From the NCBI GenBank assembly GCA_964541225.1, contig CAZIPN010000001.1, positions 39,863 to 103,862 of the forward strand: 64,000 bases of DNA, written 5' to 3'. Source of the DNA: an uncultured Eubacteriales bacterium (lineage in GTDB: Bacteria > Actinomycetota > Coriobacteriia > Anaerosomatales > JAAXUF01). A model generated the notes under the pieces. The model saw nothing but the letters and a program-made list of their open reading frames with translations. It did no database searches and was not told where the DNA came from. Of this stretch, positions 16,570 through 56,812 are shown piece by piece; position 1 is the first letter of the stretch; each line of letters begins with the position of its first letter. The position numbers were made by a program, and so were the translations under genes.

Positions 16570-16587
16570 TCGTAACAACTGTTACAA
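16570..16587 (-). promoter_or_regulatory. Rex-type operator candidate upstream of rex (gene-strand sequence TTGTAACAGTTGTTACGA)
   Basis: A 6-N4-6 palindrome GTAAC(A)-N4-GTTAC lies 41-58 nt upstream of the rex ATG. It shares architecture and outer TTGT...ACAA bases with the known Rex box TTGTGAA-N4-TTCACAA. Two more copies are at 47509 and 55840. Confidence 0.55.
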
Positions 16588-39947: not shown

Positions 39948-39963
39948 TGCTAGCACCTCGCAA

Positions 39964-40740
39964 TTACGGTTTCGTCGGGAAGACTGCAGCAGCTTGCTCG
40001 GCGAGACCCTTCGCCGAGGAGGGAGCATCGGTCGAAGTCAGCACGACTTCGAAGACGTAGCGGTTCCGGCTGAACGCAACACTCGCAAACCGGGTGCCGT
40101 CCGTGCCGAAATACGCACTGACACCGTTCACGGGCACAGCGGCGGCGTCCTTCGGGTAGAGCGACTTGGTGACCGACTGAAGAAAGGACGCGGACTTCGC
40201 AGGTGTCGCGCAGTCGTGCACCGACCACACCACGCTGGTCACTTTCGCTGCGGCCTTCGTGGGACTCCCGCCCACCGTCGCGTCGGGCCCATCGGCTTGT
40301 GCGCTGCCAAGCGCGTAGTCCGTGAACGCCTTTGGCAGCAGACTCCTCGGGCTCAGTGCCGTGGCCCACGGGTCCGGTCCTTGTGGGGCACCCGAGTTCG
40401 TGCTGGAGTTCTTGACGCTCTGCGTTGACGACGCCGACCCCGTCTGTTGCGACGCTTGCTGGGTCTTGGCGTCCTTCATGGCCTTCTTGGCCGAACTGTT
40501 GTGTGGATCGTACGTGACAGCCCGCTCGAAGAGCGCGATGGCCCCCGTGGTGTCCTTGGACGACAGTGCCTTCAGACCCTGCTGATACGCCTTCTTGCTT
40601 AGCTGCGATGGGGTGAGTTGTGTCGAGCTGGACGGTGCAGGATGCCGAGGCGCCGAGAACGCGTAGATGCCGCCGATCACGGCCGCGAGTATCAGGACCG
40701 TGGCAGCCCCGCTGAGCAGCGTTTTTGCACGAGGGCTCAC
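39964..40740 (-). CDS. Membrane-anchored hypothetical protein (one TM, one TPR-like motif, an S/T/Q-rich linker and an unknown C-terminal domain)
   Basis: TM helix LLSGAATVLILAAVIGGIYAF, and AYQQGLKALSSKDTTGAIALFERAVTYDP. The start overlaps the upstream stop (ATGA). Confidence 0.55.
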   Translation of the reverse strand: MSPRAKTLLSGAATVLILAAVIGGIYAFSAPRHPAPSSSTQLTPSQLSKKAYQQGLKALSSKDTTGAIALFERAVTYDPHNSSAKKAMKDAKTQQASQQTGSASSTQSVKNSSTNSGAPQGPDPWATALSPRSLLPKAFTDYALGSAQADGPDATVGGSPTKAAAKVTSVVWSVHDCATPAKSASFLQSVTKSLYPKDAAAVPVNGVSAYFGTDGTRFASVAFSRNRYVFEVVLTSTDAPSSAKGLAEQAAAVFPTKP

Positions 40741-45813: not shown

Positions 45814-47202
45814 CTAGGAACGCACCACGAAGGGCACGTAGCTGTCCGGGTAGCCTTTCTCGGTGCAAGCCATGCATGGGTGACCGGCGCGAGTGCAGTT
45901 GCCGCCCTGATACGGAGCGCCGCCGCTCTCGGCAGTATTGGCCGTGGCGATTGCCTGCTGAGCTGTCGTGCCAACACCGACGTTCTGCGGCTGCTGCTGA
46001 TTCCAGCCGTGGACTGTACACAGGGAGTGCGCGGCAGGACCCTTGCAGCCAATCTTCTGCAGACATCCATGACCACCTGGGTGGGTGGCAAAGATACCCT
46101 TGACGTAGTAGCGATACTTCGAGCACTTCGGTCCATGCACCGTGCTCGTGTACACGGCCTTGAGACGACGCGTACCGTCAACGGCGGCACCATGGATCCC
46201 GATGCCAGTGCCGTTGGTCGAGCTCGTAGCAACACTCTCAAGGACGCCGAGCGTACCGACAGTACCGATGCTCTGGCCGTAGACACTCGGAACATCAACC
46301 ATGACCGCGACAACCGAGAGCACGAACCACCATGGGTTCGTCGGACAGCCGGGAACGTTGACTACCTTGGCAGCCGCAGCACTCGTGTGAGCGGTGAGGT
46401 AGTCGAAGGTCCCGAGAGCACCAGTTTGCGACTTGGTAGCATCGAAGCCTGCATCCGTTGACTTGATCGGAGGCTTGCAGGCCGGATAGCCGCCGAAGGT
46501 CGCACACTGGCCGATCGCAATGATTGCGACGCACTCAGGCTTCTCGCCGAGAGCCAGGACCATCTCGCCCGTGACGATATCGGCGGTGCCAGGTTCGTTC
46601 TTGGCGATCGAGCACCACGGTACGGTTGAGGAGTCGCCCCACGCGCCACCGTTGCTGGTCGCCTGAAGCGCGCCCTCTACGACGAGCACGAACGGCTTGG
46701 TGTTGTTGCTCGCAAAGTCGTCGAGCCAGCTGTACGCGAGCTCACCGCCCATACCCATGACCGTCTCGTGATAGAGCAAGTCGATCACATCGATGACGAT
46801 GTCGGCGATGTCAACCGCACCGGGATCGGGGCTCAGGTTGTTATGAGCAAGGGTGAAATCGTCTCCCGAGGTCAGACCATTCGTGATCGGCAGAGTGCCT
46901 GCGATCCCGAGCGCGTCTGCCGTGGAGATGTCTGTCCCGGTTGGATTGATGTACATGTCGAGCGCGACGCCGCTTGGGTTCTCGTAGATGCCGAGAACTG
47001 ACGTCGAGCACCCGGTGCATTCCGCGCCGTGAAGCCATACAACGCGAGGCTTGCCGAACGTGCCCTGGTAGACACTGCCCACGCCCGAGTTCGGGTCGTA
47101 GGCAACTGCCTCCATGATCTTGGAGGCTTCCACTTGGCTGAAGCCTGCGGCGGCGGCGAGTGCACCCAAACGAGTGACGAACTGTCGCCTGGTGATTGCC
47201 AT
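45814..47202 (-). CDS. [NiFe] hydrogenase small subunit with a Tat signal (462 aa)
   Basis: Tat signal MAITRRQFVTRLGALAAAAGF. Cluster ligands are HGAECTGCSTS, GQCATFGG, VPGCPTNP, GCLQKIGCKGP and AGHPCMACTEKGYPD. AGGAGG lies 8 nt upstream of the ATG. Confidence 0.9.
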   Translation of the reverse strand: MAITRRQFVTRLGALAAAAGFSQVEASKIMEAVAYDPNSGVGSVYQGTFGKPRVVWLHGAECTGCSTSVLGIYENPSGVALDMYINPTGTDISTADALGIAGTLPITNGLTSGDDFTLAHNNLSPDPGAVDIADIVIDVIDLLYHETVMGMGGELAYSWLDDFASNNTKPFVLVVEGALQATSNGGAWGDSSTVPWCSIAKNEPGTADIVTGEMVLALGEKPECVAIIAIGQCATFGGYPACKPPIKSTDAGFDATKSQTGALGTFDYLTAHTSAAAAKVVNVPGCPTNPWWFVLSVVAVMVDVPSVYGQSIGTVGTLGVLESVATSSTNGTGIGIHGAAVDGTRRLKAVYTSTVHGPKCSKYRYYVKGIFATHPGGHGCLQKIGCKGPAAHSLCTVHGWNQQQPQNVGVGTTAQQAIATANTAESGGAPYQGGNCTRAGHPCMACTEKGYPDSYVPFVVRS

Positions 47203-47508: not shown

Positions 47509-47526
47509 ATGTAACAGATGTTACAA
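47509..47526 (-). promoter_or_regulatory. Rex-type operator candidate in the hydrogenase promoter (gene strand TTGTAACATCTGTTACAT)
   Basis: Perfect TGTAAC-N4-GTTACA palindrome, 5 nt downstream of the predicted -10. Confidence 0.55.
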
Positions 47527-47531
47527 CGTGT

Positions 47532-47560
47532 ACCTTAGTACCCCCACAACGCGTCGTCAA
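47532..47560 (-). promoter_or_regulatory. Predicted sigma-70-type promoter of the hydrogenase operon (TTGACG-17 nt-TAAGGT)
   Basis: On the gene strand, TTGACG is at 47560-47555 and TAAGGT at 47537-47532. This is a by-eye match only. Confidence 0.4.
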
Positions 47561-47667: not shown

Positions 47668-47696
47668 CTGCCGAGGACAACCCTTCCCCTCGGCAG
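47668..47696 (-). terminator. Hairpin after the NHL gene (end of the cytochrome operon)
   Basis: CTGCCGAGG-11 nt-CCTCGGCAG, a 9-bp stem about 85 nt after the stop at 47779. Confidence 0.5.
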
Positions 47697-47778
47697 AAGA
47701 CGCTCGCGCGCACTCGCGCACACCGTCCGTATGTCACCGACCGGTCTAGCCATCGGAGTCGTCTCCGACCCGATCGGT

Positions 47779-49296
47779 TCAGCTGTCGGCGTCGGGCTCC
47801 GACCCTTCGGCAGATGCTCGCTTCTCAAACCTGTTCAAGAACTCAACCCTGTTGACGACGTCAACCTGAAGCACTTTGGCCAGACGGCGATACTCGGCGT
47901 CTTCGGTGCACAGGACGGGCAGTCGCTTCGCGATCGACAAGATGATGGCAGTCGGCAGGTCGATCTCCATCTTCTCCATCAGGTCCCTGACGTCGGACTC
48001 CGAGTACGGTGTCGCCTCAAGTACCCTCGCGAGATCGACCTCTCCCTGCGTGATCTCCTTGAGGCGCTCATAGTCTTCCTCGGTCACGAACCACTTGCGG
48101 CGGTCGTGCACGAGGAGATCGAGTTCCTCGGCAGTCTCAAGCGCATGAATGAAGTCCGCTGTCGCGAAGAACTTCTTGCGCCGCAGGAACAGAAGGAGCG
48201 GAAGCAGGAGCAGTGGCAGGATGCACAGCCACCAGTTGCCACCCAGATGCGGCAGTGGAACCGGCGAGAGCTGCTCGGGCCACCCCCACACTTGGATTCG
48301 GCCGTTTGAAGTGTCGGCTATGAAGATCTTATTGTTCGAGGCGACGGAGCACCCGTTCGGATAGCTGAACTGGCCGTCAAGAATGCCCTCTTCGCCGAAG
48401 CTGACGATCTTGTCCCCCTTGGCAGACCAGATTGTTGCATCGTGAGAAAGCGTGTCGATGATCACGAAACGCTCCGGGCTGGTGGCCTTGTCTCCCGGGA
48501 AGGGATTCAGGAAGTCAATGCCGCGAGGAAGACCCTGTGTCACGATGATCTTCTTGAAGTTGCCATCCTTGTCAAAGACCTGCACACGACGGTTATTGCT
48601 GTCGGCGATGTAGACGAGCCCCTTGTGGTAGACGATGCCGTTGGGAAATTGGAACAGCCCCGGCATCTTGCCCGCATCGTTGACGATTCCCACGTTGCCC
48701 ACGGACTTCTTGAACGTGCCATCCGGCCCAAAGATCAGCAGTCTGTGCCCATTCAGTATCTCCGTGACATAGAGCGTCCCGTCCGGGGCAAACGCTAGAG
48801 CGACAGGAGCCCACTGGACGCCGTTTGTCTTGAACTTCGGCAGCTGGTTCTTGGGCAGATTCGGATTGAAGTCGCCGAGATACTTGCCGTTGAGATTGAA
48901 CCGCATGATCTTGCGCAGTCGGCGGTCTGTGACATAGAGCTCGTTGTTCACAGGATCGCGCGCGATGTTGAGCGGGATCACGGTCTGAGAGGCGCCGAAG
49001 CTCTTCTGGAAATTGCCCGCCTGGTCAAAGACGAGAATTCGGCGCCCTGCGGAGTCGCATGTGTACACCGTGTTGCCATCGACGTAGACGCCGATGGGCC
49101 GTTGGAGTTTGACCGTGCTGCCCGCAAACGAGTACAGAAACTGCGGCGGCTGAATGACGTCCGGAGAGTTCGACGCAAGCAGATTGAACTTGAGCTGGTG
49201 TGTTGCCTTGTAATAGGTGAAGTACGTGCCTATCAAGGCAAGCAGAACGACCAGGACCGCGATGACCGCGACCTTTCGTTTCTGTGAAGTGGTCAA
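47779..49296 (-). CDS. NHL-repeat beta-propeller protein flanked by two TM helices, with a C-terminal cytoplasmic domain of unknown function
   Basis: The N-terminal TM is VAVIAVLVVLLALIGTYF. Six NHL-like blades follow (P.G.....G..YV.D..N.R...F). The second TM is WWLCILPLLLLPLLLFL, then about 140 aa. The TTG start has GGAGG 5 nt upstream. Confidence 0.8.
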   Translation of the reverse strand: MTTSQKRKVAVIAVLVVLLALIGTYFTYYKATHQLKFNLLASNSPDVIQPPQFLYSFAGSTVKLQRPIGVYVDGNTVYTCDSAGRRILVFDQAGNFQKSFGASQTVIPLNIARDPVNNELYVTDRRLRKIMRFNLNGKYLGDFNPNLPKNQLPKFKTNGVQWAPVALAFAPDGTLYVTEILNGHRLLIFGPDGTFKKSVGNVGIVNDAGKMPGLFQFPNGIVYHKGLVYIADSNNRRVQVFDKDGNFKKIIVTQGLPRGIDFLNPFPGDKATSPERFVIIDTLSHDATIWSAKGDKIVSFGEEGILDGQFSYPNGCSVASNNKIFIADTSNGRIQVWGWPEQLSPVPLPHLGGNWWLCILPLLLLPLLLFLRRKKFFATADFIHALETAEELDLLVHDRRKWFVTEEDYERLKEITQGEVDLARVLEATPYSESDVRDLMEKMEIDLPTAIILSIAKRLPVLCTEDAEYRRLAKVLQVDVVNRVEFLNRFEKRASAEGSEPDADS

Positions 49297-49386
49297 CGTT
49301 GCCTCCGGAGGTGGCCGAACAAGTCGTCGCTCGGTGATGCAATCATGGTTGAACCGTCATCTTCCTTGGATCATCTCAGCCAGCTG

Positions 49387-50496
49387 CTACTTCGCCTTGG
49401 CTTTCTTCGCGGCACGACGCGCGGCGTCGTTCTTCGCTTTGGTCAGAACCGCAACCTGTTTCGTCAGTGCCGAGATCTGGGCCTGGACCTCGGCATCTTT
49501 GGGGTTGAGCTTGGCCGCCTGCTGGAACACGTCGAGCGCGTCTTTGGGATTGCCGCGCTTCACAAGGATTTGACCGTGCAGCTTCGCGGCCTCGAAGCTC
49601 TTGTCGTCCAGGTTGCGAGCAACCAAGACGTCAGTGAGTGCTCCTTCGATTTCACCGGAAGCAAGGGCCTTCTTCGCCTTGTCGATCCACTCAGAAGCCG
49701 ACCCGTAGGCGTCAAGCGCTTGCCTGGGCGGATCCGAGCCGGGTGCGAGCTTCACGGCCTGCGCAAACTGGTACGACGCGTTGACGTCGTCCTTCTTCTG
49801 TTGGTACAGCTGCCCCAGGAAATAGCGAGCCTCCGCGAAGCCAGGATCAAACTGCAACCCTATCTCCAACTGATGGATCGCATCGTCGGTGGCGCCAAGC
49901 CCTTGCAGTGCCTTGGCAAGTTGGTAGTACGAGTCTGATGAATCGCGACGCAGCTGCAAGGCCGCTTTGAAGTTGGCCGCCGCTTCGGAGTAGTTCTTGT
50001 CCCCCAAGGCCAGAACCCCGAGATTGTAGAAAGCCTGCTCGCGCACGGAGCTCAGGCCGGCATACTCCGAACCATCGGTCACGGAAATGACCTTCTGAAA
50101 GTACGTCTTGGCCGACGAGTTGTTCTTGGTCAGCATCGCGACCATTCCGAGATCGAGGTACGCACCCGAGTGATTCGGGTTGATCTTCAGAGCCGCATTG
50201 AACTGCTCGATCGCCTGCTGGTACTTGCCGAGCGCCCCGTAGGCTTCTCCCAGGCGCACCCGCAGCACGACGTCATTTGGGGACTTGCGCACCTGGCTTT
50301 CCAGCGCGGCAGCGATTCTGCCCGAAGCACTGCTGGCCTCTTGCGCCTGGCGATCGCGGTAGACGCTGTACGCGAAGACCATAGCCACGCCCAAGACGAG
50401 AACCACGAGTACTGCGACGGCGATGTTCAGCCATCGGTCCACTCGAGCTGGTTGTGGGACGTCAAGAGAGGCGGTCTCAGAGCCGGAATGAGTCAT
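49387..50496 (-). CDS. Membrane-anchored TPR-repeat protein with a Lys/Ala-rich C-terminal tail
   Basis: TM helix WLNIAVAVLVVLVLGVAMVFAY, then about 7 TPR units (e.g. LGEAYGALGKYQQAIEQFNAALKINPNHSGAYLDLGMV). The start is ATG 50496 or 50565. Confidence 0.75.
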   Translation of the reverse strand: MTHSGSETASLDVPQPARVDRWLNIAVAVLVVLVLGVAMVFAYSVYRDRQAQEASSASGRIAAALESQVRKSPNDVVLRVRLGEAYGALGKYQQAIEQFNAALKINPNHSGAYLDLGMVAMLTKNNSSAKTYFQKVISVTDGSEYAGLSSVREQAFYNLGVLALGDKNYSEAAANFKAALQLRRDSSDSYYQLAKALQGLGATDDAIHQLEIGLQFDPGFAEARYFLGQLYQQKKDDVNASYQFAQAVKLAPGSDPPRQALDAYGSASEWIDKAKKALASGEIEGALTDVLVARNLDDKSFEAAKLHGQILVKRGNPKDALDVFQQAAKLNPKDAEVQAQISALTKQVAVLTKAKNDAARRAAKKAKAK

Positions 50497-50701
50497 TCGA
50501 TGCCTTACCTCTACGTATTCCTTGAGGCGCCGAGACCCGCTCGAGACCTCAACGGGGGCGGCCAAACCAGATGCACGCTATCCATGCGCTCGGTCCGTGT
50601 CAACGGGACACCCTGGGGCGAATCACTGCCGCTGCACCTGAACGCACGAGCGAATGCCGTGCCTCCGGTTCTCACATGGCGGTCGTCAATGAGCCGTCGC
50701 A

Positions 50702-52324
50702 TCAGATTCCTAGGTTCTTGTGACATCGGAGGCACAGCTCCGCACCACGATAGGGGGCAATGGTGTTGTTCAGGGGGTCAACCGCCCCGTGACACTGGTA
50801 GCACAATCGCAGGTCATGCCCTTGCTGAAGCTCGAGTTTGCGCGCCGCTGCGCTCGTACCGAAAGACACATGGCAGTCAAAACAGTGATAGGGCCGCCCC
50901 TTCTTCTTCGCCACATTGAAGTGGACGGCATGTTCGGCGATCCCCTTGTCCTGAATGGATGTTGGTGGCTGCTGTGCCGCCTCGGGGTGGCAACCCACGC
51001 AACTCGAAGCCACGAGCTCTGCATTGGCCACCTTCTGGTGGTGGCAGTTCTGGCACGTCTGCCGGTCCGTATGACAGATGTTGCAGTCGGCGCTGCTAAC
51101 ACCCGGCTCGGGCTTGTGGTTCTCGATCCAGTTGGCCGGATGCGGCATGGTCGTCTTGTGACACCGCCGACAGGAAGCGTCGTCGTGGCACGCGCCGCAA
51201 TCCCCTTTCTTGGCGATGAAGAGCTTGCCATGCTGAGCCTGCCAATCTCCCTTCTGATGTGACTTCGGGACCACCGGCTGCTTGGGCGCGCCCGGACTCT
51301 TGCTCTTGCCTTGGTGACATTGCACGCAGAACTGAGTCTTGTGGCACATCGAGCAGTACGATGGGTCGCTGCCAGCCCTGTCCTTGTGACCGCTCGCAAT
51401 GAATCGCGCTGTGTGGTTGTTCGGTGTCAGCTTGAACCCGGGCGGATGGCACTTGTTGCACTCAGCCGTGGCGACTAGTCCCTGACTCTGGTGCTGCAGC
51501 CCATGGCAGCGATAGCACGACTGCATGTCTGGCTTGACGGGCCCGCTCGCGGTGTGACCGAACGTGGGATGGCACGTCTCGCAGGCGTAGTCGCGCTGCA
51601 GGTGCACTGCGTGTGCGAAGATCAGCCGCCCAGGCACGATGTTGTCGAGATCCGGATGACAGTACTGACATTGCGCCATGTTGGTCGGTCCACTTGGATA
51701 GATCTTGACCGACGCGGGCTGCGGACGCTGGGCAACAACCGAGACGTACGCGTCAGCCAAAGCGGCGATCTTGACGCCCTTCTTCGCGTGACAGTCGTTG
51801 CAATCCTTGCTTGCCGTGTGGCACATCATGCATTGGTTCACGCCGCCACGACGCGCCAGCTCCGCGTGCGCTTTCCCGCTGAAAGACTTCGCAGGTTGAT
51901 GGTCGGCTGGCACGAGATCGAACGACGGCGTATGACACTTGTCGCACTCGGCAGTCGCGAGCGGACCTTGGGGTCCGTGACTCACCCCGTGGCACGCGAA
52001 GCACACTTCCATCGGCACCGAGTCCGTCGCTCCGTTCTGGTGGGGTATCCGCGAGTGGCACCCATCGCACGAAATCAGAAGGTGATTGCCGTGGTTGAAC
52101 ATCAACCCCGGCTTCTTCACCGTTCCTAGGTCAAGATGGCACGGTGTGCACTGTGACGAGTCGGTGACTGGCGCCCCAGTGTCGATGACGGGGCCCGCCG
52201 ACGTTGCCGAGCCGCTGTCTGCGGCCAGAGTCCCCGTGGCCGAAACAAGCACGAAGGTCACCGCCGCAAGCGCCACGGCGACTGCAATCACCCTCCTGCT
52301 CAGTTGTCCACTTCCACGACTCAC
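50702..52324 (-). CDS. Multiheme c-type cytochrome with 20 CxxCH motifs
   Basis: 20 CxxCH were counted in the translation. There is an N-terminal anchor or signal (VIAVAVALAAVTFVLV). I trimmed the start to GTG 52324, 20 nt after the upstream stop; the tracked ORF overlaps the upstream gene by 113 nt. Confidence 0.85.
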   Translation of the reverse strand: MSRGSGQLSRRVIAVAVALAAVTFVLVSATGTLAADSGSATSAGPVIDTGAPVTDSSQCTPCHLDLGTVKKPGLMFNHGNHLLISCDGCHSRIPHQNGATDSVPMEVCFACHGVSHGPQGPLATAECDKCHTPSFDLVPADHQPAKSFSGKAHAELARRGGVNQCMMCHTASKDCNDCHAKKGVKIAALADAYVSVVAQRPQPASVKIYPSGPTNMAQCQYCHPDLDNIVPGRLIFAHAVHLQRDYACETCHPTFGHTASGPVKPDMQSCYRCHGLQHQSQGLVATAECNKCHPPGFKLTPNNHTARFIASGHKDRAGSDPSYCSMCHKTQFCVQCHQGKSKSPGAPKQPVVPKSHQKGDWQAQHGKLFIAKKGDCGACHDDASCRRCHKTTMPHPANWIENHKPEPGVSSADCNICHTDRQTCQNCHHQKVANAELVASSCVGCHPEAAQQPPTSIQDKGIAEHAVHFNVAKKKGRPYHCFDCHVSFGTSAAARKLELQQGHDLRLCYQCHGAVDPLNNTIAPYRGAELCLRCHKNLGI

Positions 52325-52343
52325 GCCAGCAGAACTCCTGTTC

Positions 52344-53672
52344 CTAAAGCCCGAGGGCTCCCTTGATCGTGGCGATCTGCCGGATCGCCCAGTTCTCCTC
52401 CTGGGCCTCCGGCTTGCGATGAATGAGTTGCTTGGCTTGGCTGGCGAATTCCTCACTCGAGCCCTTGTGACAGCCAGGCTGACCGCACGTGTTGCCCAAG
52501 TTGGCTGGATTCACCGTCGATTTGGGATCCTGGTGCGCCAAGGACAGGTGCGAGCCGTGGCACTGCCAGCACGCTGGGGCGTCCGGCGCACCATCCTTGT
52601 AGGGCTGCCCATGGTAGTAGTCGTCGAAGGAGTTGTATTTGTCGAGGTGGCAGCGAGCGCACACCCGATAGGCATCGGCGTGCATTCTCGCCTTGCCGTC
52701 AGCGGTGTCGAGCGAGTAAATGAAATGCCCCCCGTGGCACGAACCACACGTGGCCGCGTTGTAGTCACCGCTTCGTATCTTCTGCGCGTGAGTCGATCCC
52801 TCGTAGTCGGCAACCGGCTGCGACAGCTTCCTGTCCTTGAGACTCTGGTGGCACGTGGCGCACTGAAGCCCGGCGTTCACGTTCCAGAGCTTGGTCGCTG
52901 CAGGAATCGAGTCGTATCGAAAGTCCGGGTGACACTGCTGGCACGTGATCTGGTAGTGAACCGACTCGTCAACCCCGGTGACCTGAAACGACTGGTCCGT
53001 GCCTCCCACGGGGGCGATCAGAGTCGAGTCCCCATGGCACGCATAGCAACCCGATCTCGCGTCCGGCTCGCCTGGATCGTAGGACCACCCGGACGCAGGC
53101 GTCCACGAGACCTTCGCACGCTCATGACACGTGGTGCAATCGGACTGCTGATGGCACATCATGCAGTCCTTGGTGACGTCGCTTCTCGCCTGTCCGGCGT
53201 GGCCGCGCCCTGCCCAGTCGGCAGTCCCCCCGTAGGGACACGATAGTTGCGCCTTGGGGGTGTTGTGGCATGCGCCACAGTCCGACTTCGCGATCACTCC
53301 CTGGGGTCCGTGATGCAGCCCATGGCAGTTCATGCACACCTTCATGGTGGGGCGCTGCGTTCCGCTCTTCTGATGCGGAAACTTCGTGTGGCAGTCGCTG
53401 CACTGCATCTTCACGTGGTAGCCGTGGGAGAACTTGATGTCGATCGCGAAGCTTGGGGCGGGATCGTAGTTCGCGTGGCACTTCGCGCACACGTCCTCTT
53501 CCACCTGCATGTTCTGGAGCTGGTCAAGCTGATTGAGAATGTCGGCCACCGGAATTCGGGGGCCGCTCGACTCCTCTGCCAGCGCGGGTGTTGCACTGAA
53601 CACGATCCCCGCCAGCATTGCGGCAACTACTGCCACCGCAAGAAGCCATGGAAACCTCAATCGAGCGTACAT
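52344..53672 (-). CDS. Multiheme c-type cytochrome with 12 CxxCH plus 1 CxxxxCH
   Basis: Signal peptide MYARLRFPWLLAVAVVAAMLAGIVFSATPALA. 12 canonical motifs, plus CGQPGCH at the position where the paralog upstream has CSQCH. Confidence 0.85.
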   Translation of the reverse strand: MYARLRFPWLLAVAVVAAMLAGIVFSATPALAEESSGPRIPVADILNQLDQLQNMQVEEDVCAKCHANYDPAPSFAIDIKFSHGYHVKMQCSDCHTKFPHQKSGTQRPTMKVCMNCHGLHHGPQGVIAKSDCGACHNTPKAQLSCPYGGTADWAGRGHAGQARSDVTKDCMMCHQQSDCTTCHERAKVSWTPASGWSYDPGEPDARSGCYACHGDSTLIAPVGGTDQSFQVTGVDESVHYQITCQQCHPDFRYDSIPAATKLWNVNAGLQCATCHQSLKDRKLSQPVADYEGSTHAQKIRSGDYNAATCGSCHGGHFIYSLDTADGKARMHADAYRVCARCHLDKYNSFDDYYHGQPYKDGAPDAPACWQCHGSHLSLAHQDPKSTVNPANLGNTCGQPGCHKGSSEEFASQAKQLIHRKPEAQEENWAIRQIATIKGALGL

Positions 53673-53718
53673 CGTGCGCTTGCCCTTCCTTCCGCCAGCA
53701 TCACAGACGAAGTCGGCC

Positions 53719-54792
53719 CTACGATCCGCCTATGCGGAATGCCGACAAGACACCACGAAACGCTCCCTGGATGGCGGCCGTGGCCGTGTCGACTGCCGAG
53801 ACAATCGGATTCTGCTGATAGAGAGCCTTCTGTGAGTGGATCAGCTGAGCGTATTGCACGAATCCCTGCCCCGCGTCCTTGTGGCACTGCGAACACGTTG
53901 CGACGAGATTCTCGGAGCTGGTCATTGAGTCGCGGTTGCTCGAGGGCAAGACGAGATGCGCGTTGTGACACTGCCAACAGGCGGGCGCGTCCGGCGCCCC
54001 GCGCTGGTAGGCTGCCCCGTGGTAGTAGTCGCTGTAATCCGCAGACGCCCGAGCGTGGCACTTTCCGCACATCGTCATCGCCGAGGCGCGCAGAGCCTCG
54101 CGGCCCGCTGCATCATTCTTCGCAGGAATGGAATGTCCCTGGTGGCAGTCCCCGCACACAGGCTTCGGCTTGCCGGGCGCAGACGAGTTCGCCGAACCAG
54201 CAGTTGCAGAAGCGCTTGTACTTCCAACGGTGGAATGGACGCTCCGTGCCCACTCCTGGAACTCGGCCGTGTGACAGCTCTTACACGAGCTCTTCGCGAT
54301 GGCCCGCCAATTCTGACCATCCGTCGCGTTGGCATGGGGGGTCTTGTACGTGAAGTCAACATGACAGTCCGTGCACAGCAGCTTCGCGTGCGCCGACCCC
54401 TGAAGAGCAAGCGTGTTGACGTACATGCTCACGACTTTCCCGCCGATGACCCTCACAAGGTTCCTGTTGCCGTGGCACACAAGACATCCGGACTTGCCGG
54501 CGCTTCCGATGCTCCAGTCCAGGCTGTATGCGGCGCGTGCGCTCTTCGATCCGGGAGTGACGGGTGTGGTGTACACCCCGCTCTCGTTCACGCCGGGGGG
54601 AACGTAGGTCGGGGCAACTAGGCCAAACGTGTTGTGTTTGGGAACCGTCGGCGTCTGTGACGCACTCTGAGCGAGCGCGGGATTCGGCGTGTAGACGGGT
54701 GCTTCCGGATATTGGAACGCCGCGAACGCAGGACTCGGCAACAGAAGAACCACCAAGAGCGAGAGCGTTGCGAGTATGTCGCGGACGAACAT
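53719..54792 (-). CDS. Multiheme c-type cytochrome with 7 CxxCH
   Basis: Signal peptide MFVRDILATLSLLVVLLLPSPAFA. The seven motifs are CLVCH, CTDCH, CKSCH, CGDCH, CGKCH, CWQCH and CSQCH. The C-terminal half is paralogous to the 12-heme protein (SDYYHGAAYQRGAPDAPACWQCHNAH). Confidence 0.85.
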   Translation of the reverse strand: MFVRDILATLSLLVVLLLPSPAFAAFQYPEAPVYTPNPALAQSASQTPTVPKHNTFGLVAPTYVPPGVNESGVYTTPVTPGSKSARAAYSLDWSIGSAGKSGCLVCHGNRNLVRVIGGKVVSMYVNTLALQGSAHAKLLCTDCHVDFTYKTPHANATDGQNWRAIAKSSCKSCHTAEFQEWARSVHSTVGSTSASATAGSANSSAPGKPKPVCGDCHQGHSIPAKNDAAGREALRASAMTMCGKCHARASADYSDYYHGAAYQRGAPDAPACWQCHNAHLVLPSSNRDSMTSSENLVATCSQCHKDAGQGFVQYAQLIHSQKALYQQNPIVSAVDTATAAIQGAFRGVLSAFRIGGS

Positions 54793-54820
54793 GCGGAGTT
54801 CTCTCTCGTATCGTGCGCTG

Positions 54821-55726
54821 CTAGACGTGTTCCGGCTCATCGAAGATTGGCGTGTCCTCGTGGCCATGCTCAAGATCGTGTGGGGTGCCCGAGTGGTGCT
54901 CGGCACCAGTGAGACCAAAGAAGTCCTGGAAGGCTGGGAAGTCCTCGCTCAGCGCAAGATAGACGTGCACGGTCGTCAAGATGATGAACAGCCAGCAGAT
55001 CACGTAGTGCGCGGTACGTGCGTACCAGCCGGCAAGATCGGTTGATCCGACTATCCCGCCAAGCCACCAGCCGAGAAGGAGATCTCGAGGCGTCACCCCG
55101 GAATGCCCAAAGGTCGTGATGGCGCCGGTAAACGGGATCGTGTACGTCAGCAGTGCCAGTCCGGTGAACGCCTGTAGCACAAGCAGTGGAACGAACGTCG
55201 TGTACGTCATCTTCTGCATGACGTTGTACTTGCCGAAATGTGGCTTCTTCTCAGGGGGGATCAGGAAGAGGTAGTAGGCAATGACCTTAGGGGCGGTGGT
55301 GATGTCGCGACGCGTGATCGCGAACTCCTTGTAGTCACGCCGCTTGGACCCAAAGGCGTACCACAGCCGAACGATCAGGTTGATGATGACAATGACCATC
55401 GCGACGTAGTGGACCCAGCGCATACCCCAACGCGCGTACGGACCCTTCACAAACGGAAGCAGCCCAGGAAACCTGATGTACATGCCCGAAACCACCAGTG
55501 CGATCATGGCTGCAACATGCTGAAAGTGAAGGAGCTTGGGGGTTGCCGGGATCGGACCGCCCTCGTGATGCGGCCATTCCTTCTTGATGAAGCGGCGTTT
55601 CGCTCGGCCGCTTATGACGTTGCCGATGAGATGCAGCAGCAGACCGACAACCAAACAGGCGTACAACGCCGTGAATATGACGTCGAACCACACATTCAGT
55701 TGGGTCATCAGCACGGCCGCCGGCAC
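54821..55726 (-). CDS. Integral membrane cytochrome b-type subunit (FdnI/HydC Ni_hydr_CYTB-like), putative quinol-interacting subunit
   Basis: About 5 TM helices with conserved His in TM segments (LHLIGN, LHFQHVAAM, WVHYVAMV, HYVICW). It is the first gene of the cytochrome operon. GTG 55726 has AGGAG 7 nt upstream. Confidence 0.65.
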   Translation of the reverse strand: MPAAVLMTQLNVWFDVIFTALYACLVVGLLLHLIGNVISGRAKRRFIKKEWPHHEGGPIPATPKLLHFQHVAAMIALVVSGMYIRFPGLLPFVKGPYARWGMRWVHYVAMVIVIINLIVRLWYAFGSKRRDYKEFAITRRDITTAPKVIAYYLFLIPPEKKPHFGKYNVMQKMTYTTFVPLLVLQAFTGLALLTYTIPFTGAITTFGHSGVTPRDLLLGWWLGGIVGSTDLAGWYARTAHYVICWLFIILTTVHVYLALSEDFPAFQDFFGLTGAEHHSGTPHDLEHGHEDTPIFDEPEHV

Positions 55727-55839: not shown

Positions 55840-55857
55840 TTGTAACAGTAGTTACAG
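55840..55857 (-). promoter_or_regulatory. Rex-type operator candidate in the cyt b/multiheme operon promoter (gene strand CTGTAACTACTGTTACAA)
   Basis: TGTAAC-N4-GTTACA palindrome, 5 nt downstream of the predicted -10 and 114-131 nt upstream of the GTG start. Confidence 0.55.
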
Positions 55858-55862
55858 ACACC

Positions 55863-55892
55863 AGTCTACGGAGCGCCAGGGCGCAGTGTCAA
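55863..55892 (-). promoter_or_regulatory. Predicted promoter of the cyt b/multiheme operon (TTGACA-18 nt-TAGACT)
   Basis: On the gene strand, TTGACA is at 55892-55887 and TAGACT at 55868-55863. By eye only. Confidence 0.4.
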
Positions 55893-55906: not shown

Positions 55907-56812
55907 TCACCGCGCCGAGTTCCGGCTACCGTACTCGGACACATGCTCGACGAACGCGGTTGCGGCACTCGTCGGCGTGCCCTTCGGGAGAACGGCAAAG
56001 AGCGGCCGCTGGACAGGCATCCCTTCCACGCGCATCTCGGCAACCGTTCCCAGCGCCAGTGCTTTCTCGGCGACGAAGCGCGACACCATCGCGACGCCGA
56101 GCCCACCCTCAACCGCGCACACCACGGCCTCGCCGGTGCCGAGCCGAGCGAGCATCCGCAGCTCCTGCGGATCGACGCCGTGGGCAAGCAGCGTATGCTC
56201 GGCAACGCGACCGGTTCCCGACCCAAGTTCCCTTGCGACCCAATCGACGTCGGCCAGCTCGGCAAAGGTGACGTGCTTGGCCGAGGCAAGCGGCCCGTCC
56301 GGAGGACAGATCGCAACGATCTCATCGCGCGCAACTTCCTCAAACAACGCCTTCGCGCTGTTGTCGGCGATTCCGGACAGCCCCACGTCGGCCGTTCCCT
56401 CTTCCACACACCTGATGACTTGCTCGCTGTCGTTGACAGCGAGGGCCACCCGCACCTCAGGATACTTCGTGAGAAAGCCGCCGAGCACCCGGGGCACGAT
56501 GTAGTCCCCGGGAGTCGTGCTGGCGGAAATGGCTAGACGCCCAGTCACCTTGCCTGAGAGCGAGGCGATCTCATGCCGAGCTTCCTCAACGCCGTCGAGC
56601 AGGCTTCTGGCATGTAGAACCAGCGCTGAGCCCGCTTCGGTCAAGTCCACGCCTCGGTATCGACGGTCCAGAAGTGTCACTCCGATGTCGGCTTCAAGGG
56701 CTTGCATCTGCATCGTCACAGCCGGTTGAGAGATGCCAAGCGTGCGCGCTGCCTCGGAGAAGGAGCCCTTGTCGACCACGGTCACAAACGTACGCAGTTG
56801 CGAGAAATTCAT
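55907..56812 (-). CDS. LysR-family transcriptional regulator
   Basis: MNFSQLRTFVTVVDKGSFSEAARTLGISQPAVTMQMQALE plus a substrate-binding domain. Trimmed to ATG 56812. Confidence 0.9.
   Translation of the reverse strand: MNFSQLRTFVTVVDKGSFSEAARTLGISQPAVTMQMQALEADIGVTLLDRRYRGVDLTEAGSALVLHARSLLDGVEEARHEIASLSGKVTGRLAISASTTPGDYIVPRVLGGFLTKYPEVRVALAVNDSEQVIRCVEEGTADVGLSGIADNSAKALFEEVARDEIVAICPPDGPLASAKHVTFAELADVDWVARELGSGTGRVAEHTLLAHGVDPQELRMLARLGTGEAVVCAVEGGLGVAMVSRFVAEKALALGTVAEMRVEGMPVQRPLFAVLPKGTPTSAATAFVEHVSEYGSRNSAR

What the first reader, a model, noticed from the sequence alone, without database searches (positions are those of the whole stretch)
47779..55726. Six-gene operon (cyt b, 7-heme, 12-heme, 20-heme, TPR, NHL propeller): candidate trans-envelope electron conduit
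The genes are tightly packed and all on one strand. The gaps are 28, 46, 19, 136-205 (depending on which TPR start codon is used) and 90 nt. The operon sits between a predicted promoter with operator (55840-55892) and a hairpin (47668-47696). A membrane cyt b (FdnI/HydC-like) is followed by three secreted cytochromes carrying 39 canonical hemes. Then come a membrane-anchored TPR protein and an NHL beta-propeller. Cyt b plus multiheme c is the logic of quinol-oxidising Cbc-type complexes. The very long heme chains, together with scaffold-type TPR and NHL proteins, would suit spanning a thick cell wall. This fits what is known from Thermincola/Carboxydothermus-type Gram-positive metal reducers, where NHL proteins co-occur with such cytochromes. 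I do not recognise this exact gene combination as a described system.
Basis: partly seen in the sequence, partly recalled or inferred. Interest (0 to 1): 0.8.

Follow-up and report, generated by a model that had tools for sequence, protein, structure and literature searches.

The report
Hydrogen-linked cytochrome wire of Gram-positive bacteria
The six genes are real, but they are half of a conserved two-operon unit that joins a membrane cytochrome b, 40 secreted haems, an exported hydrogenase and a relative of the Geobacter "nanowire" cytochrome OmcS, probably so that uncultured Gram-positive-type Actinomycetota can pass electrons between H2 (or formate), the membrane and solids outside the cell.

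Summary
In detail: six tightly packed minus-strand genes with the stated gaps, and 39 CxxCH motifs against 0.19 expected. A conserved CX4CH site makes 40 haems.

Directly downstream lie a Tat-exported [NiFe] hydrogenase with no cytochrome b or membrane anchor of its own (nearest solved relatives are periplasmic [NiFeSe] enzymes) and a hexahaem cytochrome whose family profile matches OmcS (E 9.5e-14, full length).

Both operons carry the same palindrome, TGTAAC-N4-GTTACA, 6 nt after their -10 box. A third copy precedes a rex gene in the window, so both are predicted Rex targets.

In 76 related loci, nearly all MAGs labelled Coriobacteriia, Actinomycetota or Thermoleophilia, the six-gene order is conserved. 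The slot before the OmcS-like gene holds a hydrogenase (24 loci), a selenocysteine formate dehydrogenase (22-23) or nothing (5-6).

Best reading (confidence 0.55): an extracellular electron-transfer chain of a monoderm with a swappable donor enzyme. The main rival is a donor-side H2/formate:quinone module.

It is a new variant of known kinds (CbcL-like cytochrome b plus multihaems; OmcS with propeller and TPR companions). Interest 0.6.

The parts
55863..55892 (-). Sigma-70-like promoter of operon 1: TTGACA, 18 nt, TAGACT
   Evidence: 10 of 12 matches; sequence read.
55841..55856 (.). Predicted Rex operator 1, TGTAAC-TACT-GTTACA, starting 6 nt after the -10 box
   Evidence: Perfect palindrome. 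It is conserved 120-240 nt upstream of the cytochrome b gene in most related loci.
54821..55726 (-). Dihaem cytochrome b of the FdnI/HydC family with an extra N-terminal helix (5 predicted TM helices)
   Evidence: PF01292 63.5 bits against a cut-off of 30.1. TIGR02125 scores 71.3, below its cut-off of 121.5. His70 (or 67), His106, His240 and His254 are conserved in at least 90% of 57 homologues. The last two are 14 residues apart, which from memory is the FdnI spacing.
53719..54792 (-). Secreted 7-haem cytochrome c
   Evidence: 7 CxxCH. 7 non-motif His are conserved, consistent with all-bis-His ligation. The modal haem count is 7 in 37 of 57 homologues. A signal-peptide-like N-terminus is read from the sequence.
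52344..53672 (-). Secreted 12+1-haem cytochrome c with c7-type trihaem domains
   Evidence: 12 CxxCH plus a conserved CX4CH at residues 396-402. PDB hit to the GSU1996 domains, 3oue, E 1.7e-10.
50702..52324 (-). Secreted 20-haem cytochrome c
   Evidence: 20 CxxCH and 20 further His are invariant in 18 sequences of 53-67% identity. 52 of 65 homologues have 20 motifs. No close solved relative.
49387..50496 (-). Membrane-anchored TPR protein (one N-terminal TM helix)
   Evidence: TPR families; PF23914 (CcmH/CycH TPR domain) scores 44.3 bits against a cut-off of 42. A TM helix is present in 56 of 58 homologues, with a weak positive-inside bias.
47779..49296 (-). Two-pass membrane protein: TM helix, six-bladed NHL propeller (outside), TM helix, about 130-aa cytoplasmic alpha/beta domain
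   Evidence: AlphaFold pLDDT 85.8. Foldseek hits to NHL propellers, E 4e-20. About 4 K/R after TM2 against about 0 before it, across homologues. The C-domain has no significant family match.
47668..47700 (-). Hairpin after the NHL gene; possible terminator of operon 1
   Evidence: 11-bp stem, no U-tail, z = -1.4.
47532..47560 (-). Putative promoter of operon 2: TTGACG, 17 nt, TAAGGT
   Evidence: Read from the sequence. It has the same geometry as promoter 1. The consensus scan did not call it.
47510..47525 (.). Predicted Rex operator 2, TGTAAC-ATCT-GTTACA, starting 6 nt after the putative -10 box
   Evidence: Perfect match. It is conserved between the NHL gene and the hydrogenase or formate dehydrogenase genes in related loci.
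45814..47202 (-). [NiFe] hydrogenase small subunit with a Tat signal and no C-terminal membrane anchor
   Evidence: PF14720, PF01058, TIGR01409. The C-terminus is read.
43740..45791 (-). [NiFe] hydrogenase large subunit, closest to periplasmic [NiFeSe] enzymes
   Evidence: PF00374. Best PDB hits 1cc1 and 4kl8, E 4e-61. It ends at ...DPCLACAIH, with no C-terminal extension.
42266..43723 (-). OmcS-family hexahaem cytochrome
   Evidence: 6 CxxCH. The family profile hits OmcS (6ef8) at E 9.5e-14 over OmcS residues 8-406 with all six motifs aligned. His49 falls in the CxxCHxxH motif aligned to OmcS CEGCHTMH, which from memory contains OmcS His16, and is invariant. The gene always follows the hydrogenase, the formate dehydrogenase or the NHL gene.
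40737..42098 (-). 453-aa protein with no signal-peptide-like N-terminus and of unknown family, conserved after the OmcS-like gene in hydrogenase-type loci only
   Evidence: No Pfam or NCBIfam hit; synteny.
39964..40740 (-). 258-aa membrane-anchored protein, conserved in some hydrogenase-type loci
55907..56812 (-). LysR-family regulator upstream of operon 1
   Evidence: NF040786 (selenium-metabolism-associated LysR) 254.1 bits against a cut-off of 250. Present upstream in hydrogenase-type loci.
15873..16529 (-). rex gene, the predicted regulator of both operons
   Evidence: NF003995 240.9 bits against a cut-off of 126; PF06971 plus PF02629.
16571..16586 (.). Third copy of the palindrome (1 mismatch), about 40 nt upstream of the rex start codon

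Best explanation
The six genes are operon 1 of a two-operon, Rex-controlled respiratory unit of uncultured Coriobacteriia-related Actinomycetota. Their cultured relatives have a Gram-positive wall.

Operon 1 builds a membrane-rooted haem chain:
- A FdnI/HydC-type dihaem cytochrome b is the only integral redox protein. It is the gate to the quinone pool or to the cytoplasmic face of the membrane.
- Three Sec-exported cytochromes with 7, 13 and 20 haems carry electrons away from the membrane. Conserved His counts suggest bis-His ligation throughout, except for two candidate His/Met haems in the 13-haem protein.
- A membrane-anchored TPR protein and a two-pass NHL propeller protein hold or assemble these otherwise soluble proteins at the outer face of the membrane.

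Operon 2 adds a Tat-exported hydrogenase of the type that reduces cytochrome c, with no cytochrome b or anchor of its own, and an OmcS-family hexahaem cytochrome.

Proposed flow: electrons from H2 (formate in sister genomes) and from the membrane pool via the cytochrome b enter a common pool of c-haems. They leave through the OmcS-like cytochrome to insoluble acceptors such as Fe(III) oxides or electrodes. The chain may also run in reverse.

Rex would switch both operons on when NADH accumulates.

Shown: gene content, haem-ligand conservation, synteny, donor-cassette swapping, the shared operator, OmcS homology and the topology of the NHL protein.

Inferred: export and retention of the cytochromes, direction of flow, contact between the proteins, polymerisation of the OmcS-like protein and the identity of the acceptor.
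For: 1. The gene order cytochrome b, 7-haem, 12-haem, 20-haem, TPR, NHL is colinear in about 60 of 76 loci from species-representative genomes, at 40-68% protein identity.
2. Where DNA after the NHL gene can be read, the next genes are HydS-HydL (24 loci), a Sec-containing FdhA plus a TM-anchored FdhB (22-23 loci) or nothing (5-6 Thermoleophilia loci). In every case an OmcS-like gene follows. The Thermoleophilia version sits among housekeeping genes, so the core works without a dedicated donor enzyme, which points to the cytochrome b as an electron entry.
3. The profile of the hexahaem family matches OmcS at E 9.5e-14 over its full length. All six haem motifs align, and the invariant His49 falls in the CxxCHxxH motif aligned to OmcS CEGCHTMH, which from memory contains OmcS His16, the inter-subunit ligand.
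4. In Geobacter an NHL protein (GSU2505) lies next to omcS and was proposed to be needed for OmcS assembly or expression. The osc operon combines OmcS-like genes, a propeller-like protein and very large multihaem cytochromes.
5. The same palindrome sits 6 nt after the -10 box of both operons. In 1.28 Mb of related loci there are 58 perfect and 94 one-mismatch-or-better copies, against 0 and at most 1 in shuffles. All but two lie upstream of the cytochrome b gene or just after the NHL gene. A third copy precedes rex.
6. The hydrogenase is closest to periplasmic [NiFeSe] enzymes. From established knowledge these reduce cytochrome c3. It has a Tat signal and no anchor, and the unit contains no second cytochrome b.
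7. Conserved non-motif His equal the haem count in the 7- and 20-haem proteins. The 13-haem protein has 11, plus two conserved Met as possible ligands. There is no CxxCK motif. The proteins are therefore most likely wires rather than enzymes.
8. Literature on relatives. OPB41 isolates grow on H2 or formate. The Fe(III)-reducing isolate has a multihaem cluster with an embedded formate dehydrogenase (MCL4079376-90) and makes pili-like appendages only with ferrihydrite. In the biocathode strain EMTCatB1, a gene run annotated multihaem, multihaem, TPR, conserved, hypothetical, FDH, FeS, multihaem has about 2- to 13-fold higher TPM in the first mean column than in the other two. The table is sorted by the closed-circuit condition, so I take that column to be closed circuit.
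Against: - No experiment bears on this exact locus.
- The links to Parvivirga and EMTCatB1 rest on gene order and annotation, not on sequences I could compare.
- OmcS homologues do not necessarily polymerise; only OmcS itself is known to do so.
- Oxidising H2 outside the membrane and reducing Fe(III) outside it conserves no energy unless the electrons pass through the membrane pool. That favours a role of the cytochrome b as quinone reductase (the first rival) or a loop with another quinol oxidase.
- Quinones were not detected in either cultured OPB41 isolate, so the partner of the cytochrome b is uncertain.
- Derepression by Rex at high NADH suits an electron outlet better than an uptake hydrogenase.
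- No wall-anchoring motif was looked for or found, and the shape of the 20-haem protein could not be modelled.
Confidence: 0.55

Rival explanations
1. Donor-side module only. The unit is an H2 (or formate):quinone oxidoreductase in which multihaem cytochromes replace the direct contact between the enzyme and its HydC/FdnI cytochrome b. Electrons go from enzyme to c-haems to cytochrome b to menaquinone, taking up protons on the cytoplasmic side (a redox loop). This resembles the periplasmic hydrogenase, cytochrome c3 and membrane-complex arrangement of sulfate reducers. The terminal acceptor is served by other enzymes.
For: The cytochrome b belongs to the family that anchors group-1 hydrogenases and FdnGHI, and it keeps the four-His pattern. 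Neither the hydrogenase nor the formate dehydrogenase cassette brings a cytochrome b of its own, and both enzyme classes normally use exactly this family. This route conserves energy, whereas H2-to-Fe(III) entirely outside the membrane does not (established bioenergetics). Another candidate quinol dehydrogenase, an 11-haem NapC/NrfH-like protein, lies at 62616-63764 and could serve the outward branch.
Against: About 46 c-haems are an extravagant bridge for a job that a direct contact does elsewhere. The Thermoleophilia loci keep the cytochrome b, the multihaems, TPR, NHL and the OmcS-like gene with no donor enzyme at all. The last component is an OmcS homologue, which in Geobacter is extracellular. 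No NrfD-like or HmcB-like subunits are present. Quinones were not detected in OPB41 isolates.
Confidence: 0.2
2. Inward or reverse operation as the main role. The OmcS-like cytochrome and the multihaems take electrons from a cathode, Fe(0), reduced minerals or a partner cell. They feed the exported hydrogenase or formate dehydrogenase, which releases H2 or formate (interspecies electron transfer), or they feed the cytochrome b.
For: In EMTCatB1 on a methane-producing biocathode, the look-alike gene run including FDH and its adjacent multihaem gene is among the most expressed. TPM is several-fold higher in the column I take to be closed circuit, and the authors propose electron uptake through multihaems to hydrogenase and FDH. 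The donor enzyme and the OmcS-like gene are co-transcribed, which suggests direct coupling.
Against: The cultured OPB41 relatives consume H2 and formate. Cathodic H2 could equally explain the induction. Correspondence of the EMTCatB1 genes was not verified by sequence. Rex logic (induction at high NADH) does not fit a cell short of reductant.
Confidence: 0.12
3. Quinone-independent transmembrane relay. The dihaem cytochrome b does not touch a quinone. It carries electrons across the membrane between a cytoplasmic partner and the outer haem chain, as in the quinone-free respiratory complexes of Dehalococcoides.
For: Quinones were not detected in both OPB41 isolates. The cytochrome b has an extra conserved N-terminal helix with conserved His32 and His54 and falls below the equivalog cut-off for hydrogenase cytochrome b. 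The NHL protein has a conserved cytoplasmic domain of unknown function.
Against: No cytoplasmic redox partner is encoded in the unit. Failure to detect quinones in two isolates says nothing certain about this organism. A trans-polyprenyl synthase gene lies nearby at 58308-59669.
Confidence: 0.08
4. The multihaem proteins are enzymes acting on a soluble periplasmic substrate such as nitrite, sulfite, tetrathionate or hydroxylamine.
For: Only weak local profile hits to HAO-like and NrfA chains (E 0.003-0.2).
Against: There is no CxxCK motif. The number of conserved distal His equals the haem count in the 7- and 20-haem proteins, and the 13-haem protein has 11 His plus two conserved Met, so no open coordination site is evident. 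No NCBIfam enzyme family comes near its cut-off.
Confidence: 0.02

Closest known systems
OmcS nanowire cytochrome and its osc (omcS companion) operon plus GSU2505 in Geobacter sulfurreducens
   Same: An OmcS-family hexahaem cytochrome (profile E 9.5e-14) is encoded with a beta-propeller protein and very large multihaem cytochromes. Geobacter has the 26-haem OscI/GSU2495 and the NHL protein GSU2505 next to omcS.
   Different: The host is an actinobacterium whose cultured relatives are monoderm. No porin or channel-like OscEFG equivalent was found, and no prolyl isomerase is in the window; an FKBP gene occurs only in some formate-dehydrogenase-type loci. A cytochrome b and a hydrogenase or formate dehydrogenase are built into the unit, and control is by Rex. 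Homology of the NHL, TPR and 20-haem proteins to the Osc proteins was not tested because no sequences were available.
CbcL / Cbc-type inner-membrane quinol dehydrogenases of Geobacter, and the fused cytochrome b-multihaem protein of Carboxydothermus ferrireducens
   Same: A HydC/FdnI-type dihaem cytochrome b is coupled to a multihaem c-type partner as the membrane entry of an EET chain.
   Different: Here the two are separate genes 28 nt apart. The cytochrome b has a fifth helix. The direction of flow is unknown, and donor enzymes are attached.
Periplasmic hydrogenase or formate dehydrogenase with cytochrome c3 and membrane complexes (Hmc, Tmc, Qrc) of sulfate reducers
   Same: An exported enzyme without an anchor, closest to [NiFeSe] hydrogenases, is encoded beside multihaem cytochromes made of c3/c7-like units and a membrane cytochrome b.
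   Different: There are no HmcB, NrfD or HdrD-like subunits. No profile hit to HmcA or NhcA chains in the PDB. The partner cytochrome is OmcS-like, not a c3.
Multihaem EET clusters with NHL and TPR proteins in Gram-positive metal reducers and others (Dethiobacter alkaliphilus, Thermincola, the 'Ca. Tenderia' Uet cluster, Desulfovibrio ferrophilus)
   Same: NHL and TPR genes are embedded among multihaem cytochrome genes and are proposed to act as scaffolds or assembly factors.
   Different: Different cytochrome families and phylum. None of those descriptions includes the cytochrome b, the swappable donor cassette, the OmcS-like end or the Rex operators.
Multihaem/formate dehydrogenase cluster MCL4079376-90 of Parvivirga hydrogeniphila, and genes 1c0406-1c0415 of Coriobacteriaceae sp. 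EMTCatB1
   Same: Gene numbering and annotation fit the formate-dehydrogenase version of this unit. The hosts are an H2/formate-oxidising obligate Fe(III) reducer and a biocathode bacterium.
   Different: The match was not verified by sequence. The papers list the genes but do not recognise the conserved unit, the OmcS relationship or the shared operator. This window carries the hydrogenase version.

Membership tests
OmcS family of hexahaem cytochromes | Detectable sequence homology to OmcS over the whole protein | tested here: met
   A profile of 11 family members against the PDB hits 6ef8_A at E 9.5e-14, profile positions 40-386 to OmcS 8-406. The single-sequence search found nothing.
OmcS family of hexahaem cytochromes | Six CxxCH motifs in the same order, and the His of the first CxxCHxxH (OmcS His16, the inter-subunit ligand) | tested here: met
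   All six motifs align. His49 is invariant, and there are six invariant non-motif His. The His16 numbering and its role are from memory.
OmcS family of hexahaem cytochromes | Polymerises into a conductive extracellular filament | not testable with these tools
   Only OmcS itself is known to do so among its Geobacter paralogues.
osc (omcS companion) nanowire biogenesis cluster | OmcS-like gene with a beta-propeller protein (OscD) and large multihaem cytochromes (OscI/J) | tested here: inconclusive
   Analogous components are present (NHL propeller, 13- and 20-haem proteins). Homology to the Osc proteins was not tested because no sequences were available.
osc (omcS companion) nanowire biogenesis cluster | Channel-like OscEFG and the prolyl-isomerase chaperone OscH | tested here: not met
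   Pfam and NCBIfam scans of the window's cluster proteins show no porin, channel or PPIase. An FKBP gene lies upstream in only 7 formate-dehydrogenase-type loci.
CbcL-type quinol dehydrogenase | HydC/FdnI dihaem cytochrome b with four conserved His ligands | tested here: met
   PF01292 is above its cut-off. His70, 106, 240 and 254 are conserved, the last two 14 residues apart.
CbcL-type quinol dehydrogenase | Multihaem c domain fused to the cytochrome b | tested here: not met
   Separate genes with a 28-nt gap.
CbcL-type quinol dehydrogenase | Oxidises menaquinol | not testable with these tools
   Quinones were not detected in cultured OPB41 relatives.
Ni/Fe-hydrogenase b-type cytochrome subunit (TIGR02125 equivalog) | Score at or above the curated cut-off | tested here: not met
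   71.3 bits against 121.5. No PDB chain at E below 0.01.
Periplasmic cytochrome-c-reducing [NiFe] hydrogenase (group 1a-like) | Tat-exported small subunit without a C-terminal anchor, and a large subunit closest to [NiFeSe] or periplasmic enzymes | tested here: met
   Formal HydDB classification was not run. NCBIfam scores are below the equivalog cut-offs (304.8 against 600).
Porin-cytochrome conduits (MtrCAB, Pcc) | Outer-membrane beta-barrel with a DmsE/MtrA-family decahaem | tested here: not met
   No porin. TIGR03508 scores 35 bits against a cut-off of 192.
Hmc/Tmc/Qrc complexes | FeS (HmcB/QrcC), NrfD-like and HdrD-like subunits next to the cytochrome | tested here: not met
   None is present in the unit. 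No profile hit to HmcA.
Rex regulon | Rex-box-like inverted repeat at the promoter, and a rex gene with its own box | tested here: met
   TGTAAC-N4-GTTACA differs from the consensus TTGTnAAnnnnTTnACAA (from memory) only at the innermost base of each half-site. Copies lie at both promoters and before rex. Binding was not tested.

The most novel reading that the evidence does not exclude
The OmcS-like hexahaem cytochrome polymerises into a filament on a Gram-positive-type cell and is wired directly, without quinones, to an exported hydrogenase or formate dehydrogenase held at the membrane by the TPR and NHL proteins and the 40-haem chain. This would be an H2- or formate-fuelled nanowire, or in reverse a wire-fed H2/formate generator for interspecies electron transfer. 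It would explain the ferrihydrite-induced appendages of Parvivirga and would be the first cytochrome nanowire system in Actinomycetota.
Probability: 0.2. Interest if true: 0.85.

Novelty: new variant of a known kind. Interest (0 to 1): 0.6.

Why it matters
How monoderm bacteria move respiratory electrons through a thick wall is known from only a few Firmicutes. How cytochrome nanowires are fed and anchored is an open question even in Geobacter.

This unit is conserved in about 70 species-level genomes of the OPB41/Coriobacteriia-Thermoleophilia radiation, a common but little-understood subsurface group. It offers a compact, testable parts list: one membrane gate, three wires, two assembly or scaffold proteins, one interchangeable donor enzyme, one OmcS-like end piece and one predicted regulator.

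Apparent versions exist in a pure culture (Parvivirga hydrogeniphila) and in a biocathode enrichment, so the hypothesis can be tested directly. It bears on subsurface H2 consumption, iron cycling, corrosion and electromethanogenesis.

Tried and rejected
- AlphaFold2 of the 20-haem protein with an 18-sequence alignment gave pLDDT 43. It was unusable, so no fold search was run and nothing can be said about shape or length.
- PDB sequence searches gave only weak local hits for the 7-, 12- and 20-haem proteins (c3/c7 domains, ACIII ActA, HAO-like) and none for the cytochrome b. No membership in HmcA, MtrA, OcwA or NrfB families can be claimed.
- The cytoplasmic C-domain of the NHL protein has no PDB or Pfam match, only faint PIN hits (E about 0.03) in single members. 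The Foldseek search of the whole model returned only propellers.
- Finding the source genome failed. Exact look-ups of the hydrogenase large subunit and of P0262 found nothing, and cluster-member look-up gave no accessions or organism names.
- The primary paper on the osc cluster (Shen et al. 2025) is not held. Its content is taken from citing papers.
- LysR as the factor that binds the palindrome: rejected. Formate-dehydrogenase-type loci have the palindrome but no LysR upstream; they have Moco biosynthesis genes there instead. The motif also precedes rex.
- A catalytic multihaem enzyme: rejected on the His census and the absence of CxxCK.
- The hairpin as a strong terminator: its energy is not distinctive. 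The operon boundary rests on the second promoter and operator instead.

Full report
**1. The observation**

The six ORFs lie on the minus strand as described. Gene calls on three independent metagenome contigs that carry the identical 12-haem protein give the same six genes in the same order, with products of 301, 357, 442, 540, 369 and 505 aa.

In window coordinates the genes are:
- cytochrome b, 54821-55726
- 7-haem cytochrome, 53719-54792
- 12-haem cytochrome, 52344-53672
- 20-haem cytochrome, 50702-52324
- TPR protein, 49387-50496
- NHL protein, 47779-49296

The gaps are 28, 46, 19, 205 (136 from the upstream TTG) and 90 nt. There are 7 + 12 + 20 = 39 CxxCH motifs. All are in the coding frames of 50702-54792, against 0.19 expected in shuffles.

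The 12-haem protein has a further CX4CH site. It is kept as CX4CH in 42 of 57 homologues and as CxxCH in 11, so the three proteins probably bind 40 haems.

Pfam assigns Ni_hydr_CYTB, c7/c3-type cytochrome domains, TPR and NHL. The promoter (55892-55863) and a perfect 16-bp palindrome (55841-55856) are present. The hairpin after the NHL gene is a real 11-bp stem without a U-tail and is not statistically remarkable.

**2.

On the same strand, 576 nt after the NHL gene, comes a second transcription unit:
- a [NiFe] hydrogenase small subunit (45814-47202) with a Tat signal and no C-terminal anchor;
- the hydrogenase large subunit (43740-45791);
- a 6-haem cytochrome (42266-43723);
- a 453-aa protein of unknown family and a 258-aa membrane protein.

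The large subunit is closest to the periplasmic [NiFeSe] hydrogenases 1cc1 and 4kl8 (E 4e-61). From established knowledge these soluble enzymes hand electrons to cytochromes c. The subunit ends at DPCLACAIH, without the usual cleaved extension.

**3. A shared operator, probably for Rex**

The palindrome TGTAAC-N4-GTTACA occurs perfectly twice in the window, upstream of the cytochrome b gene and upstream of hydS. In both places it starts exactly 6 nt after a -10-like hexamer that follows a TTGAC(A/G) -35 box at 17-18 nt.

A third copy with one mismatch (16571-16586) lies about 40 nt before the start codon of a gene that scores 240.9 bits on the Rex model NF003995 (cut-off 126). That gene has the Rex domain pair PF06971 + PF02629.

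The motif differs from the published Rex box TTGTnAAnnnnTTnACAA (from memory) only at the innermost base of each half-site. Both operons are therefore predicted members of the Rex regulon, which responds to NADH/NAD+. The adjacent LysR gene matches the selenium-metabolism-associated LysR model (254 bits, cut-off 250). It is not the likely binder of the palindrome (see section 4).

**4. Comparative genomics**

The 20-haem protein has more than 200 relatives of about 520-550 aa. All 20 CxxCH motifs and exactly 20 further histidines are invariant across sequences of 53-67% identity. Where sources name these proteins, they come from Coriobacteriia or Actinobacteria MAGs.

A scan of one genome per species returned 76 loci, nearly all MAGs labelled Coriobacteriia, Actinomycetota or Thermoleophilia. 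By tblastn, the order cytochrome b, 7-haem, 12-haem, 20-haem, TPR, NHL is colinear in about 60 of them. Haem counts are largely kept: modes of 7, 10-13, 20 and 6.

Where the DNA after the NHL gene can be read:
- 24 loci continue with HydS-HydL.
- 22-23 loci continue with a Tat-signal, selenocysteine-containing formate dehydrogenase alpha subunit plus a TM-anchored FeS subunit.
- 5-6 Thermoleophilia loci continue with nothing. They also lack the 12-haem gene.

In every case the next gene is the 6-haem cytochrome. Formate-dehydrogenase-type loci are preceded by molybdenum-cofactor biosynthesis genes. The Thermoleophilia loci sit among unrelated housekeeping genes.

The palindrome is conserved at the same two places, before the cytochrome b gene and directly after the NHL gene. 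There are 58 perfect and 94 one-mismatch-or-better copies in 1.28 Mb, against 0 and at most 1 in shuffles, and only two copies lie elsewhere. It occurs in formate-dehydrogenase-type loci that have no LysR gene upstream.

The unit is therefore a conserved core (cytochrome b, multihaems, TPR, NHL, hexahaem) with a slot that takes an exported H2- or formate-oxidising enzyme.

**5. The hexahaem cytochrome is an OmcS relative**

A single-sequence search of the PDB found nothing. A profile of 11 family members hits the Geobacter nanowire cytochrome OmcS (6ef8) at E 9.5e-14 over nearly its whole length, and all six haem motifs align. Characteristic flanks also align: CHDPHG, WCxxCH, CLxCHRAH and the C-terminal CxxCHxK.

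His49 falls in the CxxCHxxH motif that aligns to OmcS CEGCHTMH. From memory this motif contains His16, which in OmcS ligates a haem of the next subunit. His49 is invariant, and six non-motif histidines are invariant in all.

In Geobacter:
- An NHL protein (GSU2505) lies next to omcS and was proposed to be needed for OmcS assembly or expression.
- The osc operon joins OmcS-like genes with a propeller-like protein (OscD), channel-like OscEFG, the chaperone OscH and the very large cytochromes OscI (GSU2495, 26 haems) and OscJ.
- Only OmcS itself is known to polymerise among its paralogues.

**6. The other parts**

*Cytochrome b.* It has five predicted helices. His70 (or 67), His106, His240 and His254 are conserved. 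The last two are 14 residues apart, which from memory matches the FdnI His155/His169 spacing. There is an extra N-terminal helix with conserved His32. It passes Pfam but not the NCBIfam equivalog cut-off for hydrogenase cytochrome b (71.3 against 121.5 bits).

*7-haem and 13-haem proteins.* The 7-haem protein has 7 conserved non-motif His. The 13-haem protein has 11, plus two conserved Met. None of the three cytochromes has CxxCK, so they most likely act as electron carriers rather than enzymes.

*NHL protein.* The model is confident (pLDDT 85.8): TM helix, six-bladed propeller, TM helix and an alpha/beta domain of about 130 aa. Charge distribution across about 50 homologues puts the propeller outside and the C-domain in the cytoplasm. 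The C-domain has no significant match.

*TPR protein.* It has one N-terminal helix and just passes the model for the TPR domain of the cytochrome c biogenesis proteins CcmH/CycH (44.3 against 42 bits). It may be an apocytochrome chaperone rather than, or as well as, a scaffold.

**7. Evidence from relatives in the literature**

The first cultured OPB41 bacteria (Anaerosomatales) have a Gram-positive wall and grow on H2 or formate. Parvivirga hydrogeniphila is an obligate Fe(III) reducer. It has a "peculiar" cluster MCL4079376-90 of multihaems with a molybdopterin enzyme, and its formate dehydrogenase is MCL4079382-3. That position is exactly where the formate-dehydrogenase version of this unit would put a Sec-split FdhA after six genes. 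The authors suggest that this cluster determines Fe(III) reduction. The strain makes pili-like appendages only with ferrihydrite. Quinones were not detected.

In Coriobacteriaceae sp. EMTCatB1 from a methane-producing biocathode, genes 1c0415-1c0406 are annotated membrane protein, FKBP, multihaem, multihaem, TPR, conserved, hypothetical, FDH large subunit, FeS subunit, multihaem. Every one of them has a higher TPM in the first of the three mean columns, by about 2- to 13-fold. The table is sorted by the closed-circuit condition, so I take that column to be closed circuit.

I could not compare these sequences with the window, so both links are inferences from gene order and annotation.

**8. 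Mechanism**

The best reading is a membrane-rooted extracellular electron-transfer chain of a monoderm. The cytochrome b is the gate to the membrane pool. Forty c-haems act as relay. TPR and NHL hold or assemble the exported proteins. The OmcS-like cytochrome is the outer end. An exported hydrogenase (here) or formate dehydrogenase injects electrons directly into the c-haem pool. Rex would induce everything when NADH rises.

The donor-free Thermoleophilia version argues that the cytochrome b can be the electron entry, as in CbcL.

Bioenergetics argues the other way for H2: oxidising H2 and reducing Fe(III) both outside the membrane yields no proton-motive force. At least part of the flux should therefore pass from cytochrome b to quinone. 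That is the main rival (a donor-side H2/formate:quinone module), or a loop with another quinol oxidase such as the 11-haem NapC/NrfH-like protein at 62616-63764.

Reverse operation (electron uptake with H2 or formate release) fits the biocathode data. A quinone-independent relay fits the missing quinones. I give these readings 0.55, 0.20, 0.12 and 0.08, and 0.02 to a catalytic role.

**9. Comparison with known systems, and novelty**

Each element has a precedent: CbcL-like cytochrome b with multihaems, OmcS with propeller and large-cytochrome companions, NHL and TPR genes in multihaem clusters, and periplasmic hydrogenase or formate dehydrogenase with a cytochrome c partner.

I found no description of the following in the searchable literature:
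- the combination as one conserved unit in Actinomycetota;
- the exact cassette swap between hydrogenase, formate dehydrogenase and nothing, in front of an OmcS-like gene;
- the twin predicted Rex operators.

The unit fails the tests for Mtr/Pcc conduits, Hmc/Tmc/Qrc complexes and a complete osc cluster (no porin or channel, no PPIase in the window). I file it as a new variant of a known kind. Interest is 0.6: a specialist would find the OmcS-hydrogenase linkage in a Gram-positive lineage notable, and it is directly testable in an existing isolate. The general idea of a multihaem EET cluster with NHL and TPR genes is not new.

Noticed in passing
window 62336-62432 (-), with 55907-56812: A tRNA-Sec gene lies in the window. 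The LysR gene next to the cytochrome operon matches the selenium-metabolism-associated LysR model. Sister loci use a Sec-containing formate dehydrogenase, but the hydrogenase here has Cys (DPCLAC).
   Followed up: partly
window 62616-63764 (+): A membrane-anchored 11-CxxCH cytochrome with a NapC/NirT/NrfH-type N-terminus (PF03264; TIGR03153 below its cut-off). It is a second candidate quinol dehydrogenase that could form a redox loop with the cytochrome b unit.
   Followed up: partly
window 35331-38330 (-) and 38598-40028 (-): A 999-aa cytochrome with 13 CxxCH and a central FG-GAP propeller region lies next to a secreted 476-aa protein with C-terminal DUF5648 repeats. It is a possible surface-exposed terminal reductase. 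A homologue was seen in only one related locus (L054).
   Followed up: partly
window 47779-48180 (NHL protein residues 372-505): A conserved cytoplasmic alpha/beta domain of about 130 aa follows the second TM helix of the NHL protein. It has no significant match, only faint PIN-like hits. JGI labels some homologues 'predicted nucleic acid-binding protein'. It suggests that the propeller protein also has a task inside the cell.
   Followed up: partly
window 43740-45791 and 45814-47202: The hydrogenase subunits are unusually long (683 and 462 aa) compared with their closest solved relatives, the roughly 500-aa periplasmic [NiFeSe] large subunits. The large subunit lacks the C-terminal extension normally removed by a maturation protease, and no protease gene is in the unit.
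   Followed up: no
L016 14786-19231: The formate dehydrogenase alpha subunit of sister loci totals about 1,476 aa across the in-frame TGA. From memory this is far longer than FdnG. There is a large insertion in the N-terminal part.
   Followed up: no
L044 and L055 (also L011 and L054 on one chromosome): Some genomes carry both versions. In two contigs a formate-dehydrogenase unit is followed in tandem by a partial hydrogenase unit (20-haem, TPR, NHL, HydSL, hexahaem) that lacks the cytochrome b and the 7- and 12-haem genes.
   Followed up: partly
window 57003-58211 (-) and related hydrogenase-type loci: A flavodiiron protein (FprA/flavorubredoxin-like) and the LysR gene are conserved upstream of the cytochrome b gene in about 12 hydrogenase-type loci. 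This may be an oxygen or NO protection link.
   Followed up: no
window 40737-42098 (-): A 453-aa protein with no signal-peptide-like N-terminus and no family match is conserved right after the OmcS-like gene, but only in hydrogenase-type loci. Its function is unknown.
   Followed up: no
L042, L048, L050, L051, L078 (upstream of the cytochrome b gene); L071, L073: An FKBP-type prolyl isomerase gene directly precedes the unit in a subset of formate-dehydrogenase-type loci, and apparently in EMTCatB1 (1c0414). This recalls the prolyl-isomerase chaperone OscH of the Geobacter osc operon.
   Followed up: partly
52344-53672 (12+1-haem protein): Two Met residues (M110, M172) are conserved alongside 11 non-motif His for 13 haems. 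This hints at two His/Met-ligated haems of higher potential within the chain.
   Followed up: no
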